Virus record (IMG/VR): IMGVR_UViG_3300009690_000003 | DNA length: 35,898 nucleotides | Source of the DNA: a virus | Reading direction: 5' to 3' (one strand) | Shown here: piece by piece, positions 1 through 35,898 of the stretch | Layout: each line of letters opens with the position of its first letter | Numbering within the stretch: the first letter of the stretch is position 1 | Notes under the pieces: generated by a model | Database searches by the model: none | The model's input: only the letters and a program-made list of their open reading frames with translations | Told to the model about the DNA's origin: nothing | Program-made: the position numbers and the translations under genes

Positions 1-123
1 AGCGGCCCGCCGTTTTGGGTGGCAAACAGGTGCTGGCCCATGGGATCGTCCTTGCGGTCCGCTGCCAGGTAGCGCCAGATGGCCTGGCCGGTGCGCGCTG
101 AGAAGGGTAGCATGCGCTCTTTG
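1..123. repeat. Terminal overlap identical to 35776-35898 (circular closure)
   Basis: Base-by-base reading shows nt 1-123 = nt 35776-35898. The overlap lies inside the integrase reading frame. Confidence 0.95.
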
Positions 124-873: not shown

Positions 874-920
874 TCGGGGCGAGCGGATTTGAACCGCTGG
901 CCTCACGGACCCGAACCGTT
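874..920 (-). other. tRNA-Pro(CGG) 3' fragment (anticodon arm to discriminator), putative attP core
   Basis: The minus strand reads AACGG-TTCGGGT-CCGTG-AGGCC-AGCGG-TTCAAAT-CCGCT-CGCCCCG-A. It has U33, anticodon CGG, G37, a perfect T arm, G72 and A73. There is no D arm, no 5' acceptor strand and no CCA. Confidence 0.7.
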
Positions 921-1761: not shown

Positions 1762-2769
1762 ATGGAGAACTTATTGAATGTGAAAGAGGCGCAGCGGCTG
1801 GATGTGCGTGAGGCCACCACCAATGACAAGTGGGCCAACGCCTTTGGGTTGTGGCTGTCGAGCAAGGCGGGCAACACCCGCCGGGCGTATGAGCTGGCCT
1901 GGGAGATGCTGATGGACTTCACGGGCAAGATGCCCTGGGAGATGGGTTCGGCGGACATCGAGGCCTGGGCGGCCGAGCTGCGCAAGGGATATTCTGAGAG
2001 CACGGTCCAGCAGCGGTTGGCTGCCGTTTCCAGTTTCTTTTCCTATGCCAAGCAGCAGTACATGGATTTTGTGGACGGGGTCGAGATGCCCCTGCACCAC
2101 TACAACCCGGCCAAGGCAGTCCAGCGGCCCAAGGTCCTGGCCTATGGCAAGGCCCATCCGCTGAGTGTTGACTCGGTCAAGGCCCTGCTGGATGCGATCG
2201 ACCGGACCACAGCCCAGGGCAAGCGGGATTATGCGCTGATCCTGGCTTTTGTGCTCACCGGCCGCCGCAACAGCGAGGTGATCAACCTGCGCTGGGGTGA
2301 CCTGGAGCAGCGTGACGGGCGGATCTGGTACCGGTGGCAGGGCAAGGGGTGTACGAGTGGTCGTTACGAGTTGCCTGCTGCTGTTTTCTTGGCCATAACC
2401 GATTGGTTGTCTTCGTCTTCACGGCTGGATGATATGCACGCTGAGGATTACATCTTTACCGCACTGAGCGATCATGCCAGGCACTTCCCGGGTGTGGAGC
2501 ACGACCCTGGGCGTCCGCTCAGCAGCCGTTATGTGCGGGACCTGGTCAAAAAGTACGCTCGGATGGCCGGGCTGGATCCCGACCTGGTGCGGGTGCACGA
2601 CCTGCGTCACACAGCAGCGATGCTGCGGGCTGAGGCGGGCGATGATGTGCGGCTGATCAGCAGCTTCCTGGGTCACAGCGACCTGCGGACCACATCCCGG
2701 TACCTGTTTCAGGTGGGCGGACGCAAGGATGAGAGCTGGGGTAAGGTCTGCGAGATGCTATCGATTTGA
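1762..2769 (+). CDS. Second tyrosine recombinase/integrase (335 aa)
   Basis: Catalytic signature present: TGRRNSEVINLRWGDL (Arg), HDLRHTAAM (HxxR), LGHSDLRTTSRY (His, Tyr). AAGGAG RBS 6 nt upstream of the ATG. Confidence 0.9.
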   Translation: MENLLNVKEAQRLDVREATTNDKWANAFGLWLSSKAGNTRRAYELAWEMLMDFTGKMPWEMGSADIEAWAAELRKGYSESTVQQRLAAVSSFFSYAKQQYMDFVDGVEMPLHHYNPAKAVQRPKVLAYGKAHPLSVDSVKALLDAIDRTTAQGKRDYALILAFVLTGRRNSEVINLRWGDLEQRDGRIWYRWQGKGCTSGRYELPAAVFLAITDWLSSSSRLDDMHAEDYIFTALSDHARHFPGVEHDPGRPLSSRYVRDLVKKYARMAGLDPDLVRVHDLRHTAAMLRAEAGDDVRLISSFLGHSDLRTTSRYLFQVGGRKDESWGKVCEMLSI

Positions 2770-32783: not shown

Positions 32784-34085
32784 ATGAAACTGGATGCGTT
32801 TTACCGGGAGGTGCTCAGCCGAAAGGGGCTGGCCCAGGACATCATGCGGGAATTGTACGGCGCCATCCTATCACAACAGGCGGCCAAGATGCAGATTGCC
32901 GGGATCCGGCGGCATGTGCGTTTTAAAGAGAAGATGGAGACGCCCGAGGAGAAGCAGCAGGACCTGGACGAGCGCAGCTACCACGAGGACGGCACCTGGA
33001 CGACCAAGCGCCTGATCATGCTTTCGGAGGAGGAGAGCCAGGACCCGCAGGCGATCATGGTCAAAATGGGGCTGGACCCGCTGAAGTGGGATGTGGTCAG
33101 CTTTAAAATAAAGCGCAACTGGTGGGATACGCCGATGAAGCTGAAGGATGAGGACGGGGTGGATCACGCCACGTCCCGGCGCAATTACCAGTTTTTGGTC
33201 GAGCTGAGGGTGAAGCCTTCGGGGTTGATCAGCACGGATGTGGTGGCTAAAGTGTTTGCGGACCTGCCCGCGCCGGAACTGGAGCTGTTTAGCTATCAGC
33301 CCGGCCGGAAGATGCTGGAGCTGCCGATCATGGACCTGCACCTGGGCAAGCTGGCCTGGGGCGAGGAGACCGGCGAGGATTACGACCTGAAGATCGCTGA
33401 GCAGCTGTACAGGGATACTGTACGTGATTTTTTGGGCAAGGTGAGCCATTACAGCTTGCCGATCGAGCTGATCCTGTTCCCGGTGGGACAGGATTTTTTC
33501 CATGTAGACAACACCACCAGCATGACCACGGGGGGCACGCTGGTAGACACGGACACGCGCTGGGCTAAGATGTATGACAGCGGGGTGCGTTTGCTGGTGT
33601 GGACGGTGGATCAGCTGCGTCAGATCGCCCCGGTGGAGATCATGTACGTGCCCGGCAACCACGACAAGACGCTGAGCTACTGTGCGGTGTACACGCTGCA
33701 TGCCTATTATCAAAACTGCGAGGCGGTGGCGGTGGACCTGAACCCGGGTCCCAGGAAATATGTGCGCTATGGCGTGAATTTGATCGGCTTTTCCCATGGC
33801 AAGGAGGGCAAGCGCATCTTCAACCTGATGCAGCAGGAGCGAGCCCAGGATTGGGGTGAGACGATCTACCGGGAGTGGCATTTGGGCGACCTCCACCATG
33901 AGGAGACGAAGGAGGAGGGCGGCGTCAAGGTGCGGCGGATCAGTTCGATCACCGCGGCGGATGCCTGGCATGTCGAGAAGGGCTTCCGGGCCATCCGGCA
34001 GGCGCAGGCGTTTGTGTGGGATCGGGAGCAGGGGCCGGAGCTGATGATCGATAGCAATGTGATGGTGAGGGAGGAAAGGGATTAG
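32784..34085 (+). CDS. Calcineurin-like metallophosphoesterase with an N-terminal extension
   Basis: Motifs DLHLG, GQDFFHVDN, VPGNHD, GFSHG and GDLHH appear in the canonical order. The ATG at 32784 was chosen because the upstream part of the track ORF overlaps the lysin. Confidence 0.7.
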   Translation: MKLDAFYREVLSRKGLAQDIMRELYGAILSQQAAKMQIAGIRRHVRFKEKMETPEEKQQDLDERSYHEDGTWTTKRLIMLSEEESQDPQAIMVKMGLDPLKWDVVSFKIKRNWWDTPMKLKDEDGVDHATSRRNYQFLVELRVKPSGLISTDVVAKVFADLPAPELELFSYQPGRKMLELPIMDLHLGKLAWGEETGEDYDLKIAEQLYRDTVRDFLGKVSHYSLPIELILFPVGQDFFHVDNTTSMTTGGTLVDTDTRWAKMYDSGVRLLVWTVDQLRQIAPVEIMYVPGNHDKTLSYCAVYTLHAYYQNCEAVAVDLNPGPRKYVRYGVNLIGFSHGKEGKRIFNLMQQERAQDWGETIYREWHLGDLHHEETKEEGGVKVRRISSITAADAWHVEKGFRAIRQAQAFVWDREQGPELMIDSNVMVREERD

Positions 34086-34117
34086 GGAATGGGGAATAGT
34101 GAGTAGGGATTAGGAGA
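34083..34117. repeat. TAGGGAW-type heptamer array (5 units)
   Basis: TAGGGAA TGGGGAA TAGTGAG TAGGGAT TAGGAGA. The first unit contains the stop codon of 32784-34085. Confidence 0.75.
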
Positions 34118-34123
34118 TACTTT

Positions 34124-34179
34124 TGTCATTGCGAGGAGCGCAGCGACGACTGCTTGCGTCCTGTAAAGGAAGCAATCTC
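34124..34179. repeat. GAGATTGCT...GCAATGACA repeat, inverted orientation, long variant
   Basis: TGTCATTGCGAG...(33 nt)...AGCAATCTC. Confidence 0.75.
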
Positions 34180-34306
34180 AGCTTGGGCGTGAAAGGTATT
34201 CGATGAAGCAACCGTCTGGTGTGGGAGCAGGTACCAGGAAGATCCATGGCAGCACAGCGTTTAAAGCTTAACCAGCCCTGTTGGGTGCGCCTGCTCAGCT
34301 TCATAC

Positions 34307-34331
34307 GCGGGTTCGATTCCCGCCACGTCCA
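34307..34331 (+). other. Orphan tmRNA/tRNA-Ala-type 3' end (T arm plus acceptor 3' strand)
   Basis: GCGGG TTCGATT CCCGC CACGTCC A, with T at the position corresponding to U70 of a G3:U70 pair. No matching 5' acceptor strand (GGRCGTG) within 300 nt on either side. Confidence 0.55.
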
Positions 34332-34493
34332 CTGATTGCCTTTTTAGAAAAGGCGCCGTACTGGAGTGAGTACACGATAGCCGCCCACCATGCAGGGTAA
34401 TCTGTCCCATACACTCAATGGGTTGCTAGCAAGAGCGTAAAATGGGCATGGAAGGCAATCTTAGTCGACCTACCACGAGTAGGCACGATAGCA

Positions 34494-34524
34494 AACACCG
34501 CCAGGGATGGCGGTGTTTTGGTTT
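34494..34524. terminator. Bidirectional intrinsic terminator
   Basis: AACACCGCC AGGGAT GGCGGTGTT forms a 9-bp stem followed by TTGGTTT. It lies between the end of the plus-strand late transcript and the 3' end of the minus-strand peptide gene. Confidence 0.7.
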
Positions 34525-34530
34525 AAAGAG

Positions 34531-34623
34531 TCAGCTGGGATCGGGCGAGTTAAAGTATGCGATCAGGAAAATGATCACGATCAGCGCATAAACGACGATT
34601 TCTGGGGTGGAGAGTTGATCCAT
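34531..34623 (-). CDS. 30-aa hydrophobic peptide
   Basis: MDQLSTPEIVVYALIVIIFLIAYFNSPDPS has a single TM helix. It ends at the terminator and is divergent from 34707-35201. Confidence 0.4.
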   Translation of the reverse strand: MDQLSTPEIVVYALIVIIFLIAYFNSPDPS

Positions 34624-34706
34624 GATATAAATATTACATCAAATGGGGAAAATCATATATAATTAACTTACACGAACTTAAGTGGTTTTGGGAAAAGAGG
34701 GTTGAA

Positions 34707-35201
34707 ATGTCTGAATTCTTAACTTTATCTTGTCCAACATGCAGTGGAAAACTGCAAATTACTGAAGATATTGATCGTTTCGCTTGTGCTCATTGCGGTA
34801 ATGAGCATGTTGTAAAAAGAAGCGGCGGCATTGTATCTTTGAAGCCAGTTTTTGAGGCAATGTCAAAGGGGGTTGATAACACAGCAAGTGAATTGGCAAT
34901 CGCTCGGTTAGATAAAGAAATTGACGAAATTAGCGAGAAAATTGCGACCTTGCAGACACAAATCGACGCATCAGCAGGATATTTGGTTGGTGGCTTGATT
35001 ATTACTGGTATTGGCGTAGCTTTGTGGATTGGGCTTGAATGTGCTACCGCTGGTTTTGGGTTGATAATTCCTGGAATAATTGGAATATTGATGTTTGTTG
35101 CTTCACTTGAAAAAAAGCCTGAAAAAGAAAAACTTCAAGAGAAACTTAAGGAATTAAAGACCAACCGAAAAGCCCATTATGATAAAGTGAACAATATTTA
35201 G
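34707..35201 (+). CDS. Zinc-ribbon / coiled-coil / double-TM membrane protein
   Basis: CPTCSGK...CAHCGNEH zinc ribbon, a helical linker, then two hydrophobic helices (LVGGLIITGIGVALWIGL, GLIIPGIIGILMFVASL). AT-rich moron-like gene with an AAGAGGG RBS. Confidence 0.7.
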   Translation: MSEFLTLSCPTCSGKLQITEDIDRFACAHCGNEHVVKRSGGIVSLKPVFEAMSKGVDNTASELAIARLDKEIDEISEKIATLQTQIDASAGYLVGGLIITGIGVALWIGLECATAGFGLIIPGIIGILMFVASLEKKPEKEKLQEKLKELKTNRKAHYDKVNNI

Positions 35202-35226
35202 CATTCCATAAGGAAATTAAAAGGGA

Positions 35227-35249
35227 GCAGCCGCCTTTTTAGCGGCTGC
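35227..35249. terminator. Hairpin after 34707-35201 (T tract only on the minus-strand side)
   Basis: GCAGCCGC CTTTTTA GCGGCTGC. Confidence 0.4.
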
Positions 35250-35301
35250 TGAGAAGGGGGAGGGTAAGAATTTTCTCCTTGCCTCTCTACCGGTTCAACC
35301 G

Positions 35302-35317
35302 GCTTTTCCTTCGCAGG
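35302..35317 (+). repeat. 16-nt copy of the tRNA anticodon-arm sequence in inverted orientation relative to the tRNA gene
   Basis: GCTTTTCCTTCGCAGG equals the sense sequence of tRNA positions 23-38 (complement of 35409-35424). Confidence 0.85.
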
Positions 35318-35375
35318 TGAACTCATTATAGTTTATTCTTGGGAAAATTGCAATAATTTGTATGGGTTCAATACA

Positions 35376-35447
35376 TGCCCCCGACCAGATTCGAACCGAT
35401 ATCTTATCCCTGCGAAGGAAAAGCTTTTTCCATTAAGCTACGGGTGC
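35376..35447 (-). tRNA. tRNA-like gene, anticodon CGC (Ala-type) but without G3:U70; two stem mismatches
   Basis: Hand-folded cloverleaf of 72 nt: GCACCCG TA GCTT AATGGAAA AAGC T TTTCC TTCGCAG GGATA AGAT ATCGG TTCGAAT CTGGT CGGGGGC A. U8, A14, G18G19 and the GTTCGAAT T loop are present. A3-G70 and U28-U42 are mismatches. A TATAAT lies 12 nt upstream. Confidence 0.6.
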
Positions 35448-35525
35448 ATGTGTTAATAATTATACGCCGGTCATAAAAAGAATTAATATATATGGCCGAT
35501 ATTTTAGGATGGCACTAAATACCGA

Positions 35526-35898
35526 TTACAACCCCCACTTCTCAACCGGTGAGGCGTGGCGGTGGGCGTCATCCAGGTCGGATTGGCTGATGGCCAGGTA
35601 GCGCTTGACCATGTCGAGCGTGGTGTGGCCGAGTATCTCCTGCAGCGTGTAGATGTTGGGGTAATTGCGCAGGTAATTGACGGCGAAGGTGTGGCGGAAG
35701 TCGTGCGGCGTGTAATGGGGGAGCTCGGCCCGGGCGGCGATCCGCTCGAGGATGTGGCGCAGGTGGGTGCGGGTGAGCGGCCCGCCGTTTTGGGTGGCAA
35801 ACAGGTGCTGGCCCATGGGATCGTCCTTGCGGTCCGCTGCCAGGTAGCGCCAGATGGCCTGGCCGGTGCGCGCTGAGAAGGGTAGCATGCGCTCTTTG
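35526..35898 (-). CDS. int: Tyrosine integrase, C-terminal third (same gene as 1-686)
   Basis: HDFRHTFAVNYL (HxxR) and LGHTTLDMVKRYL (His, catalytic Tyr). The stop is at 35526-35528. The frame continues through the 123-nt overlap. Confidence 0.92.
   Translation of the reverse strand, partial: KERMLPFSARTGQAIWRYLAADRKDDPMGQHLFATQNGGPLTRTHLRHILERIAARAELPHYTPHDFRHTFAVNYLRNYPNIYTLQEILGHTTLDMVKRYLAISQSDLDDAHRHASPVEKWGL
35776..35898. repeat. Terminal overlap identical to 1-123
   Basis: Exact identity on direct reading. Confidence 0.95.

What the first reader, a model, noticed from the sequence alone, without database searches (positions are those of the whole stretch)
35302..35447. Non-canonical tRNA next to the integrase plus a 16-nt inverted copy of its anticodon arm
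A 72-nt cloverleaf on the minus strand has the universal features (U8, A14, GG, GTTCGAAT) and its own TATAAT. Its anticodon is CGC (alanine box), yet position 3:70 is an A-G mismatch instead of the G:U pair required by AlaRS. Position 28:42 is U-U. Ninety nucleotides away, on the other strand, GCTTTTCCTTCGCAGG (35302-35317) repeats tRNA positions 23-38 exactly. It is preceded by a T-arm-like hairpin CCGGTTCAACCGG. A 16-nt exact inverted repeat is very unlikely by chance. It could be a recombination site pair for inversion of the 91-nt segment carrying the tRNA 3' half. It could also be a scar of integration into the anticodon arm, or a decoy. The tRNA may be a pseudogene or have non-standard identity.
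Basis: seen in the sequence. Interest (0 to 1): 0.56.

Follow-up and report, generated by a model that had tools for sequence, protein, structure and literature searches.

The report
Odd phage tRNA with antisense partner
A temperate phage carries a tRNA-shaped gene that cannot be a normal alanine tRNA, followed by what looks like a small RNA gene whose first bases pair with that tRNA's anticodon arm; the two change in step in related phages, and I found no description of such RNA-against-tRNA control in the papers I could search.

Summary
A 72-nt cloverleaf (anticodon CGC, A3/G70 mismatch, U28/U42) lies at 35376-35447(-). A perfect 16-nt inverted copy of its nt 24-39 lies at 35302-35317.

The interpretation needs changing. 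The window is a circular 35.8-kb temperate phage. Its real attP is a 46-nt tRNA-Pro(CGG) 3' part at 874-919, on the other side of the integrase. So the tRNA(CGC) is neither an att site nor an integration scar.

The inverted copy sits 7 nt after the best sigma70-like promoter of the region (35353-35325, minus strand). A hairpin and a terminator follow it. It therefore reads as the 5' end of a ~100-nt small RNA antisense to the tRNA's D/anticodon arm.

Two related lineages (L012, L052) keep both promoters, the tRNA fold and the terminator. Their anticodon arms differ (L052 has anticodon GCU), and the antisense segment has changed in step. None of the three tRNAs has the identity mark that its anticodon calls for, and the body is arginine-type.

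No inverted form appeared in 13 assemblies. Read-level and expression tests could not be run.

Earlier notes of this scan describe similar tRNA-plus-antisense cassettes on other DNA (e1-4508579, e1-4119920, e1-785949, e1-815839). I found none in the papers searched.

The parts
35376..35447 (-). tRNA-shaped gene with anticodon CGC, an arginine-type body (A20, A73), an A3/G70 mismatch, a U28/U42 mismatch and no encoded CCA
   Evidence: ARAGORN. Rfam tRNA 50.7 bits. Orthologues in L012 (61.4 bits) and L052 (68.9 bits). 8 of 21 stem pairs are compensatory. Closest phage tRNAs are tRNA-Arg.
35459..35464 (-). -10 box (TATAAT) of the tRNA promoter P1, 11 nt before the tRNA 5' end
   Evidence: Read from the sequence. 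A -10-like box lies at the same 11-nt distance in L012 (TATAAT) and L052 (TAAAAT). The -35 is weak. The tRNA may also be co-transcribed with the integrase gene (inference).
35325..35353 (-). Promoter P2: TTGCAA, 17 nt, TATAAT. It is the best sigma70-like site of the region and ends 7 nt before the antisense segment.
   Evidence: The homologous sites are TTGACG-17-TATAAT in L012 and TTGATT-16-TATAAT with an upstream TG in L052. The spacer sequence has diverged while the hexamers are kept. The chance of a 10/12 or better site at that place is at most 0.03% in shuffles.
35302..35317 (-). Antisense segment CCUGCGAAGGAAAAGC at the predicted 5' end of the small RNA. It is complementary to tRNA nt 24-39 (D-stem 3' strand, nt 26, anticodon-stem 5' strand, anticodon loop, G39).
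   Evidence: The segment co-varies with the tRNA in L012 (18 bp with one G.U) and in L052 (13+4+9 nt). Cognate duplexes are stronger than cross-lineage ones.
35290..35302 (-). Short hairpin (CCGG-UUGAA-CCGG) directly after, and sharing one base with, the antisense segment
   Evidence: The stem is kept in L012 with a different loop. In L052 the hairpin at this place is the mirror image of the tRNA's D arm.
35216..35250 (-). Intrinsic terminator for minus-strand transcripts (10-bp stem, then CCCUUUUAAU). This is the predicted 3' end of the ~100-nt small RNA.
   Evidence: The stem GC(A/C)GCCGC...GCGGCUGC is conserved in L012 and L052. On the + strand no U tract follows it.
34707..35201 (+). ORF164, a zinc-ribbon / coiled-coil / two-TM protein. 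It is transcribed towards the small RNA gene and accompanies the module in all three lineages.
   Evidence: It is 82-84% identical to the L012 and L052 copies. It has no clear family in Pfam, PADLOC or PHROGs. Plus-strand terminator-like sites fall within or next to the copied segment.
35526..35898 (-). 3' part of the tyrosine integrase gene. It continues at 824-1 across the circle junction, and its stop is 78 nt upstream of the tRNA.
874..919 (-). attP core for context: 46 nt identical to tRNA-Pro(CGG) from the anticodon stem to the 3' end. It shows that the tRNA(CGC) is not the attachment site.
   Evidence: The integrated forms L029 and L055 carry an intact tRNA-Pro(cgg) next to int. 7 CACGGAT repeats lie in 685-1021 and none lies near 35200-35530.

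Best explanation
The finding is a two-gene RNA module in the accessory slot downstream of the integrase of a temperate phage. Gene 1 is a tRNA-shaped RNA with an arginine-type body, an Ala-box anticodon CGC and no alanine identity pair. Gene 2 starts about 58 nt after the tRNA's 3' end on the same strand. It has its own promoter, a hairpin and a terminator, which would give a ~100-nt non-coding RNA. The first 16 nt of that RNA are perfectly complementary to the tRNA's D-stem 3' strand, anticodon-stem 5' strand and anticodon loop. The '16-nt inverted copy' is therefore the DNA footprint of an RNA-RNA pairing. It is not a recombination site. Most likely mechanism (inferred): the small RNA contacts the exposed anticodon loop and then invades the weak anticodon stem. 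Transcripts that read through from the tRNA promoter or from int would carry the same segment in cis. Either way the tRNA-shaped RNA would be held unfolded or masked, or the 16-18-bp duplex would be handed to a double-strand RNase. The level of free tRNA-shaped RNA would then be set by the ratio of the two promoters. Shown here: the sequences, the conserved fold, the conserved promoter and terminator signals, and the co-variation of the two partners in three lineages. Inferred: that both RNAs are made, that they pair in vivo, which of the two is the regulator, and what the output is. Possible outputs are silencing of a tRNA that would mis-decode, or titration of an RNA that overlaps the 3' end of the ORF164 mRNA.
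For: (1) The tRNA fold is under selection. Rfam scores are 50.7, 61.4 and 68.9 bits, and 8 of 21 stem pairs change on both sides across the three lineages. (2) Complementarity tracks the tRNA. Between the window and L012, all three differences inside nt 24-39 (positions 27, 30 and 38) are matched in the partner. One further change gives a G.U wobble, which pairs in RNA but is a mismatch in DNA. In L052 the anticodon arm is entirely different (anticodon GCU), yet the downstream element is again its complement, 13+4+9 nt. L052 and L012 share 91% ORF164 identity, and each integrase is about 94% identical to the window's. (3) The best sigma70-like promoter of each region sits at the same place. 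In the window and L012 it ends 7 nt before the complementary segment. In L052 the complementarity begins 2 nt after the -10. The spacer sequence between the hexamers has diverged. (4) A minus-strand terminator is conserved downstream. (5) Co-folding puts the intermolecular helix in the minimum-energy structure, and cognate pairs beat cross-lineage pairs. (6) The copied stretch is one continuous strand rather than a stem-loop. That fits antisense pairing better than a protein or recombinase site.
Against: Only three lineages carry the module, and further scans found no more. The promoter and terminator are consensus matches in AT-rich DNA. In L052 the complementarity starts 2 nt after the -10 box, so part of it would be absent from a P2 transcript. 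That favours pairing in cis, or a DNA-level origin by inverted duplication. L012 and L052 may differ by swapping a whole module rather than by stepwise co-evolution. Close ORF164 relatives (L024, 78%) and integrase relatives lack the module, so it is dispensable. No regulated output could be identified.
Confidence: 0.6

Rival explanations
1. The pairing works only in cis. The complementary segment is part of the 3' trailer of a long int-tRNA or P1 read-through transcript. It folds back on the tRNA to form a 16-18-bp helix that governs tRNA maturation or triggers RNase III decay of the upstream integrase message, in the manner of lambda sib retroregulation. Under this reading the 'P2 promoter' is incidental.
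For: No terminator is predicted between the tRNA and the segment. The 266-nt minus-strand transcript folds with this long-range helix, with a z-score of -4.8. In L052 the complementarity starts only 2 nt after the -10 box.
Against: The promoter hexamers and their spacing are conserved in three lineages while the sequence between and around them has diverged. A 16-bp helix is short for RNase III (my own knowledge). attP lies on the other side of int, so the sib-type topological logic is absent.
Confidence: 0.15
2. The repeats are crossover sites of an invertible DNA switch. Inversion of 35318-35408 would split the tRNA and turn promoter P2 round. The second tyrosine recombinase (1762-2769) or the integrase would catalyse it.
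For: Inverted repeats flank a promoter, which is the layout of known invertible promoters. The phage has two tyrosine recombinases. Recombination between the arms would keep them identical.
Against: All 13 assemblies (the window, 10 independent metagenome contigs, L012 and L052) have the same orientation. The arms differ in sequence and length between phages with about 94% identical integrases. The L012 arms differ at one base, and the L052 arms have indels. The left arm lacks the dyad symmetry of a recombinase core site. The integrase's repeated motif CACGGAT is absent from this region. The idea of an alternative 5' half for the inverted state fails in L012.
Confidence: 0.07
3. There is no function. 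An orphan phage tRNA happens to have a nearby inverted partial duplicate, created and occasionally re-homogenised by replication template switching. Alternatively the duplicate is kept only as a terminator hairpin for ORF164.
For: In L052 the element looks like a decayed mirror copy of tRNA nt 10-41, which points to an origin by inverted duplication. Plus-strand terminator-like hairpins overlap the copy. The module is dispensable in close relatives.
Against: The arms match at 16/16 and 17/18 positions within genomes, while the same positions differ at 3-4 sites between the window and L012. The promoter is conserved at the same place in three lineages. Compensatory changes maintain the tRNA fold.
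Confidence: 0.1
4. The plus-strand copy, in the 3' UTR of the ORF164 mRNA, is a decoy or mimic of the anticodon arm for a protein such as a synthetase, a modification enzyme or an anticodon nuclease.
For: The copy has the same sense as the tRNA on the ORF164 strand and includes the anticodon loop.
Against: The 3' strand of the anticodon stem is not copied, so the stem-loop shape is not reproduced in the window. The copy extends into the D-stem strand, which a loop-binding protein would not need. The conserved promoter faces the other way.
Confidence: 0.04
5. The tRNA and its repeat are the phage attachment site, or a scar of integration into the anticodon arm.
For: The tRNA lies next to an integrase gene, and integrases of this lineage do target tRNA genes from the anticodon stem onward.
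Against: The phage/host breakpoint lies at 874-919, in a tRNA-Pro(CGG) fragment. Integration leaves direct repeats, not inverted ones. The close relative L001 has the same integrase without this tRNA.
Confidence: 0.02

Closest known systems
C4 antisense RNA of phages P1/P7 and CI RNA of satellite P4 (Rfam RF01695). These are RNase P-processed, tRNA-like antisense regulators of temperate elements. Cited through PMC4919922 ref. 206 and PMC3632133; the mechanistic details are from my own knowledge.
   Same: A temperate phage carries a small tRNA-like RNA. A short stretch complementary to one of its arms lies just downstream on the same strand. The pairing segments differ between related phages, as in P1/P7 heteroimmunity.
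   Different: The RNA here is a full cloverleaf that passes Rfam's tRNA threshold, and it does not match the C4 model at E up to 1. The complementary partner heads a short non-coding unit with its own promoter, not an antirepressor or replication mRNA. The module sits in the accessory slot beside int, not in an immunity region.
Natural hybrid-identity (mistranslating) tRNAs, e.g. the bacterial tRNAProX family (PMC10404621) and anticodon variants of Ala/Ser tRNAs (review PMC11415595)
   Same: The anticodon does not fit the rest of the tRNA. The window and L012 have an Ala-box CGC without G3:U70, and L052 has a Ser-box GCU on a short-variable-arm, Arg-type body.
   Different: As far as I read them, those tRNAs are described without a dedicated antisense RNA. 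Charging of the present tRNAs is untested, and the window and L012 copies lack C35, which I recall as a main arginine determinant.
Phage tRNA-dependent lysogeny (PMC10865867)
   Same: A temperate phage with a tyrosine integrase targets a host tRNA gene and carries its own tRNA gene near int.
   Different: Here attP carries 46 nt of the tRNA-Pro 3' part, and the host tRNA-Pro is intact in the integrated forms. The phage tRNA has another anticodon. Close relatives manage without it.
Invertible promoter switches (fimS-type 'invertons'; my own knowledge)
   Same: Short inverted repeats flank a ~90-bp segment that holds a promoter, and tyrosine recombinases are encoded in the same genome.
   Different: No second orientation appears in 13 assemblies. 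The arms vary between phages with nearly identical integrases. The arms coincide with a functional arm of a tRNA.
tRNA-linked RNA sponges (the 3' external transcribed spacer of a tRNA precursor that binds sRNAs) and convergent 3'-overlapping type I toxin-antitoxin RNAs (my own knowledge)
   Same: RNA next to a tRNA gene engages in base pairing with a small RNA. The small RNA gene converges on a membrane-protein gene and shares a two-way hairpin with it.
   Different: The pairing partner is the tRNA body itself, not its spacer. ORF164 (164 aa) is not a typical type I toxin, and its relatives exist without the RNAs.

Membership tests
Canonical elongator tRNA-Ala | Cloverleaf with the universal tertiary nucleotides | tested here: met
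   Rfam tRNA 50.7 bits against a gathering score of 29. U8, A14, G18G19 and the T loop are present.
Canonical elongator tRNA-Ala | G3:U70 pair, the AlaRS identity element (PMC11415595) | tested here: not met
   A3/G70 in the window, and C3-G70 in L012 and L052.
Canonical elongator tRNA-Ala | Anticodon conserved among orthologues | tested here: not met
   CGC, CGC and GCU at the same locus.
tRNA-Arg (the body type it most resembles) | A20, A/G73, C35 and U/G36 (identity set recalled from my own knowledge) | tested here: inconclusive
   A20 and A73 are present in all three. The acceptor stem and D arm are closest to phage tRNA-Arg. C35 and U36 are present only in L052, while the window and L012 have G35 and C36. 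Charging was not tested.
Integrase attachment site in a tRNA gene | The phage/host sequence breakpoint falls inside the tRNA-like segment when circular and integrated forms are compared | tested here: not met
   The breakpoint lies at 874-919 in a tRNA-Pro(CGG) part. The integrated forms are L029 and L055. The region 35202-35525 is internal to the prophage.
Invertible DNA switch | Inverted repeats flanking a promoter-bearing segment | tested here: met
   The arms are 35302-35317 and 35409-35424, and P2 lies between them.
Invertible DNA switch | Both orientations occur in natural populations | tested here: not met
   One orientation in 13 assemblies, and no hit for the inverted junction. Read-level search was not possible, so rare inversion is not excluded.
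C4/CI antisense RNA family (RF01695) | Match to the family covariance model | tested here: not met
   cmscan of 34050-35530 and of L052 at E up to 1 gave no C4 hit.
C4/CI antisense RNA family (RF01695) | RNase P-processed tRNA-like RNA that pairs with a target just downstream on the same strand | not testable with these tools
   The layout agrees. Processing and pairing need experiments.
Independent bacterial small-RNA gene | Own promoter and intrinsic terminator, conserved in relatives, with no conserved ORF | tested here: met
   Promoter. Terminator. The 42-codon frame 35198-35326 starts inside the -10 box, and its frame is lost in L012 through an indel.
Independent bacterial small-RNA gene | A transcript of the predicted size is detected | not testable with these tools
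tRNA-dependent lysogeny | Integration fails to rebuild the host tRNA, and the phage tRNA of the same isotype replaces it | tested here: not met
   The host tRNA-Pro(cgg) is intact beside int in L029 (Rfam 61.4 bits) and L055. The phage tRNA has another anticodon.

The most novel reading that the evidence does not exclude
The module is an all-RNA poison/antidote or gatekeeping pair. The tRNA-shaped RNA is chargeable through its arginine-type body (clearest for the L052 allele, with A20, C35, U36 and A73). It would then insert the wrong amino acid at Ser AGY codons (L052) or Ala GCG codons (window, L012). The dedicated small RNA covers its anticodon arm until some event, such as superinfection, induction or loss of the prophage, shifts the ratio. 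The fast-changing anticodon arm and antisense segment would define specificity types, as in heteroimmune phages.
Probability: 0.08. Interest if true: 0.9.

Novelty: new variant of a known kind. Interest (0 to 1): 0.66.

Why it matters
Phage tRNAs are usually explained by codon supply, by escape from host anticodon nucleases, or by replacement of a disrupted host tRNA. This case shows a phage tRNA-shaped gene whose most conserved property beyond its fold is a private antisense partner. Its anticodon changes between close relatives and never fits its body. If the pairing is real, bacteria and phages have a way to regulate a single tRNA species directly by a small RNA. That bears on deliberate mistranslation, on RNA-only toxin/antidote systems and on prophage accessory genes. 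The three natural alleles give a ready set for compensatory-mutation tests.

Tried and rejected
(1) Sequencing-run search, for inversion reads and RNA ends.
(2) Exact-pattern scans for more copies found no relatives.
- The anticodon-arm 22-mer, and D arm plus loop, gave nothing in viral, metagenome or genome contigs.
- Loop plus T arm gave three hits: two by chance and one unrelated tRNA-Ala.
- T arm plus acceptor hit only unrelated tRNAs of large phages.
- The L052-type pattern found two Arg-body tRNA(GCU) genes without a partner within 600 nt.
(3) BLAST against the phage and E. coli collections gave only weak tRNA-level hits.
(4) My first idea was that inversion would join the tRNA 3' half to an alternative 5' half (GCCTCTC...). 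The matching stretch in L012 cannot pair, so I dropped it.
(5) My second idea was that the tmRNA-like 3' end at 34297-34332 is attP. I rejected it once the integrated forms showed attP at 874-919.
(6) ORF164 has no significant family in Pfam, PADLOC or PHROGs.
(7) Other cargo sits behind related integrases and carries no tRNA module (L001, L024, L028-L033, L042-L051, L053-L055).
(8) RNAduplex on full-length RNAs adds spurious long-range pairs, so I used only the ranking of cognate against cross pairs.
(9) Literature searches for an sRNA directed at a tRNA anticodon arm found nothing relevant. Hartmann et al. 1995 was not held.

Full report
WHAT IS IN THE SEQUENCE
ARAGORN finds one tRNA in the window, tRNA-Ala(cgc) at 35375-35448 on the minus strand. 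Rfam's tRNA model scores 50.7 bits at 35376-35447, and its alignment marks two non-standard pairs: 3:70 (A/G) and 28:42 (U/U). The 16-mer GCTTTTCCTTCGCAGG occurs at 35302-35317(+) and 35409-35424(-). It occurs nowhere else in the window even with two mismatches, against 0.01 expected. The copied stretch is tRNA nt 24-39: the last two bases of the D stem, nt 26, the 5' strand of the anticodon stem, the whole anticodon loop and G39.

CONTEXT
The window is a circularly closed element, because bases 1-123 repeat at 35776-35898. It is a 35.8-kb temperate tailed phage. The tyrosine integrase gene on the minus strand crosses the junction (824 to 1, then 35775 to 35526). The tRNA lies 78 nt downstream of the integrase stop on the same strand.

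The region 34624-35525 is AT-rich. A phage with a 94-98% identical integrase (L001) carries other cargo there.

THE ATTACHMENT SITE IS ELSEWHERE
Two integrated relatives (L029 in a 24.8-kb contig, L055 in a 586-kb MAG contig) have an intact tRNA-Pro(cgg) just upstream of int. I aligned L029 with the circular forms. The sequences are identical from the anticodon stem of tRNA-Pro to its 3' end and beyond, and they diverge on the 5' side.

That 46-nt segment is at 874-919(-) in the window. Seven CACGGAT repeats surround it, and none lies near the tRNA(CGC). This disposes of the 'att site' and 'integration scar' readings. It also corrects my own interim idea that the tmRNA-like end at 34297-34332 was attP.

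RELATIVES OF THE MODULE
- Ten independent assemblies of the same phage (JGI, ENA, Logan, NCBI) are 100% identical over 35202-35525 and have the same orientation.
- L012 carries the same layout: ORF164 is 82% identical and the integrase C-terminus 94%.
- L052 also carries it: ORF164 is 83.5% identical to the window's and 91% to L012's, and the integrase is 94% identical.
- The layout in all three is int, tRNA, a short non-coding stretch, then ORF164 on the opposite strand.
- All other relatives examined have different cargo and no tRNA.

THE tRNA IS A MAINTAINED FOLD WITH A MISMATCHED IDENTITY
Rfam scores are 61.4 bits for L012 and 68.9 for L052. Across the three genes, 8 of 21 stem pairs change on both sides while staying paired. 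This is not a decaying pseudogene.

L012 and L052 have C3-G70, so the window's A3/G70 is a derived mismatch. None has the G3:U70 pair that AlaRS needs (PMC11415595). The anticodon is CGC in the window and L012 but GCU in L052. The L052 tRNA has a 5-nt variable loop rather than the long arm of bacterial tRNA-Ser.

The acceptor stem (GCCCYKG), the D arm with A20 and the discriminator A73 resemble phage tRNA-Arg genes. In all three, then, the anticodon does not fit the body.

THE INVERTED COPY IS THE START OF A TRANSCRIPTION UNIT
I aligned the three intergenic regions in tRNA orientation. They share five elements:
1. A -10 box 11 nt before the tRNA.
2. The tRNA itself.
3. A poorly conserved spacer.
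4. A promoter, which is the best sigma70-like match in each region:
- TTGCAA-17-TATAAT in the window (35353-35325)
- TTGACG-17-TATAAT in L012
- TTGATT-16-TATAAT with an upstream TG in L052
5. A segment complementary to that genome's own tRNA, then a hairpin and a GC-rich hairpin with a U tract.

In the window and L012 the -10 ends exactly 7 nt before the complementary segment. In shuffles a 10/12 or better promoter at that place occurs in at most 0.03% of trials. The predicted RNA runs from about 35318 to about 35216, roughly 100 nt. It has no conserved reading frame.

CO-VARIATION
The window and L012 tRNAs differ at 12 positions, and three of these lie in nt 24-39 (positions 27, 30 and 38). 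All three are matched by the complementary change in the downstream segment. A fourth change there turns U26-A into U26.G, which is a pair in RNA but a mismatch in DNA. In L012 the helix extends to nt 41.

In L052 the anticodon arm is unrelated in sequence, yet the downstream element is complementary to it. It matches 13 nt of the anticodon arm, 4 nt of the D-stem 3' strand and 9 nt of the D-stem 5' strand and loop. It looks like a trimmed mirror image of nt 10-41.

Cognate tRNA/segment duplexes are 9-23 kcal/mol better than cross-lineage ones. Co-folding places the intermolecular helix in the minimum-energy structure.

WEIGHING THE READINGS
A recombination-site pair is unlikely for four reasons:
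- Only one orientation appears in 13 assemblies.
- The arms differ in sequence, length and register between phages with nearly identical integrases.
- The left arm lacks the symmetry of a core site.
- The arms are imperfect in L012 and L052.
Rare inversion cannot be excluded without reads, which I could not obtain.

A plus-strand decoy is unlikely because the copy does not rebuild the stem-loop. A neutral inverted duplication may well be how the element arose. It does not explain the matched substitutions or the conserved promoter.

Pairing only in cis, within read-through transcripts, remains a serious alternative. There is no terminator between the tRNA and the segment. The 266-nt transcript folds with the long-range helix (z = -4.8). 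In L052 part of the complementarity lies upstream of the predicted start.

MECHANISM (INFERRED)
I propose that the small RNA, or the trailer in cis, pairs with the anticodon loop and invades the anticodon stem. That stem is weakened in two of the three alleles: U28/U42 in the window and C27/A43 in L012. The pairing would mask or unfold the tRNA-shaped RNA, or mark the duplex for cleavage.

Which partner regulates which is open, and so is the output. The small RNA gene converges on ORF164, and plus-strand terminator-like hairpins fall inside or next to the copied segment. A three-way circuit with the ORF164 mRNA 3' end is therefore possible. ORF164 itself has no assignable family.

COMPARISON WITH KNOWN SYSTEMS
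The nearest described systems are the tRNA-like, RNase P-processed antisense RNAs C4 (P1/P7) and CI (P4) (PMC4919922 ref. 206; PMC3632133). The present RNAs do not match the C4 model, are genuine cloverleaves, and have a non-coding partner.

Hybrid-identity tRNAs are known (PMC10404621; PMC11415595). As far as I read and searched, they are described without a dedicated antisense RNA. tRNA-dependent lysogeny (PMC10865867) does not apply, because the host tRNA-Pro is rebuilt.

EARLIER NOTES OF THIS SCAN
After I had reached this reading, I found that earlier agents reported similar 'odd tRNA plus private antisense RNA' cassettes on other DNA. One is an Arg-type tRNA(GCU) like the L052 allele (e1-4508579). 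Another lies in an acidobacterial prophage (e1-4119920). These are unchecked AI notes, and a sequence look-up found no homology to them. I treat them as agreement, not as evidence.

VERDICT
My confidence is 0.6 for RNA-level pairing with a separate sRNA, plus 0.15 for pairing only in cis. Expression and function remain untested.

Noticed in passing
window 34185-34334 (+): A 150-nt mini tmRNA-like gene. Rfam tmRNA scores 39.5 bits (E 6e-14, below the gathering score of 47). Both acceptor strands are present (GGGCGUG ... CACGUCCA, giving G3:U70), with a T arm, but only 88 nt stand where the model has 308. It is also in L031 (39.4 bits). L001, L029, L028 and L030 keep only the 3' part.
   Followed up: partly
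window 874-919 (-), with repeats in 685-1021: This is the true attP. 46 nt are identical to tRNA-Pro(CGG) from the anticodon stem to the 3' end, flanked by seven CACGGAT repeats that are probably integrase arm sites. Integrated forms are in L029 and L055. A relative with an 87% identical integrase (L043) sits beside tRNA-Val(cac) instead.
   Followed up: yes
window 1-123 and 35776-35898: An exact 123-nt terminal overlap shows that the window is a circularly closed 35,775-bp genome. The integrase gene spans the junction.
   Followed up: yes
window 34531-34623 (-): The 30-codon hydrophobic ORF matches the C-terminal end of the GC-rich zinc-ribbon gene that occupies this slot in L001/L029. It looks like the remnant left when the AT-rich ORF164/RNA cassette replaced that gene in the opposite orientation.
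   Followed up: partly
slot between int and the exonuclease gene: window 34086-35525; L001, L012, L028-L033, L051-L055: This slot is a cargo-exchange hotspot. Relatives carry a zinc-ribbon membrane gene in either orientation, a 135-aa ORF with an N6/N4 methyltransferase, a 50-56-aa ORF, or (in L012) an Mrr-type nuclease next to ORF164.
   Followed up: partly
L057 (IMGVR_UViG_3300023096_000140), 1602-1676 and 2145-2232: An unrelated viral contig has an Arg-body tRNA with anticodon GCU and no antisense partner within 600 nt. It also has a long-arm tRNA with anticodon UUA, which would read the UAA stop.
   Followed up: no
window 1762-2769 (+): A second complete tyrosine recombinase sits in the early operon. 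It matches PHROG integrase families, is also present in L031, and has no known target.
   Followed up: no
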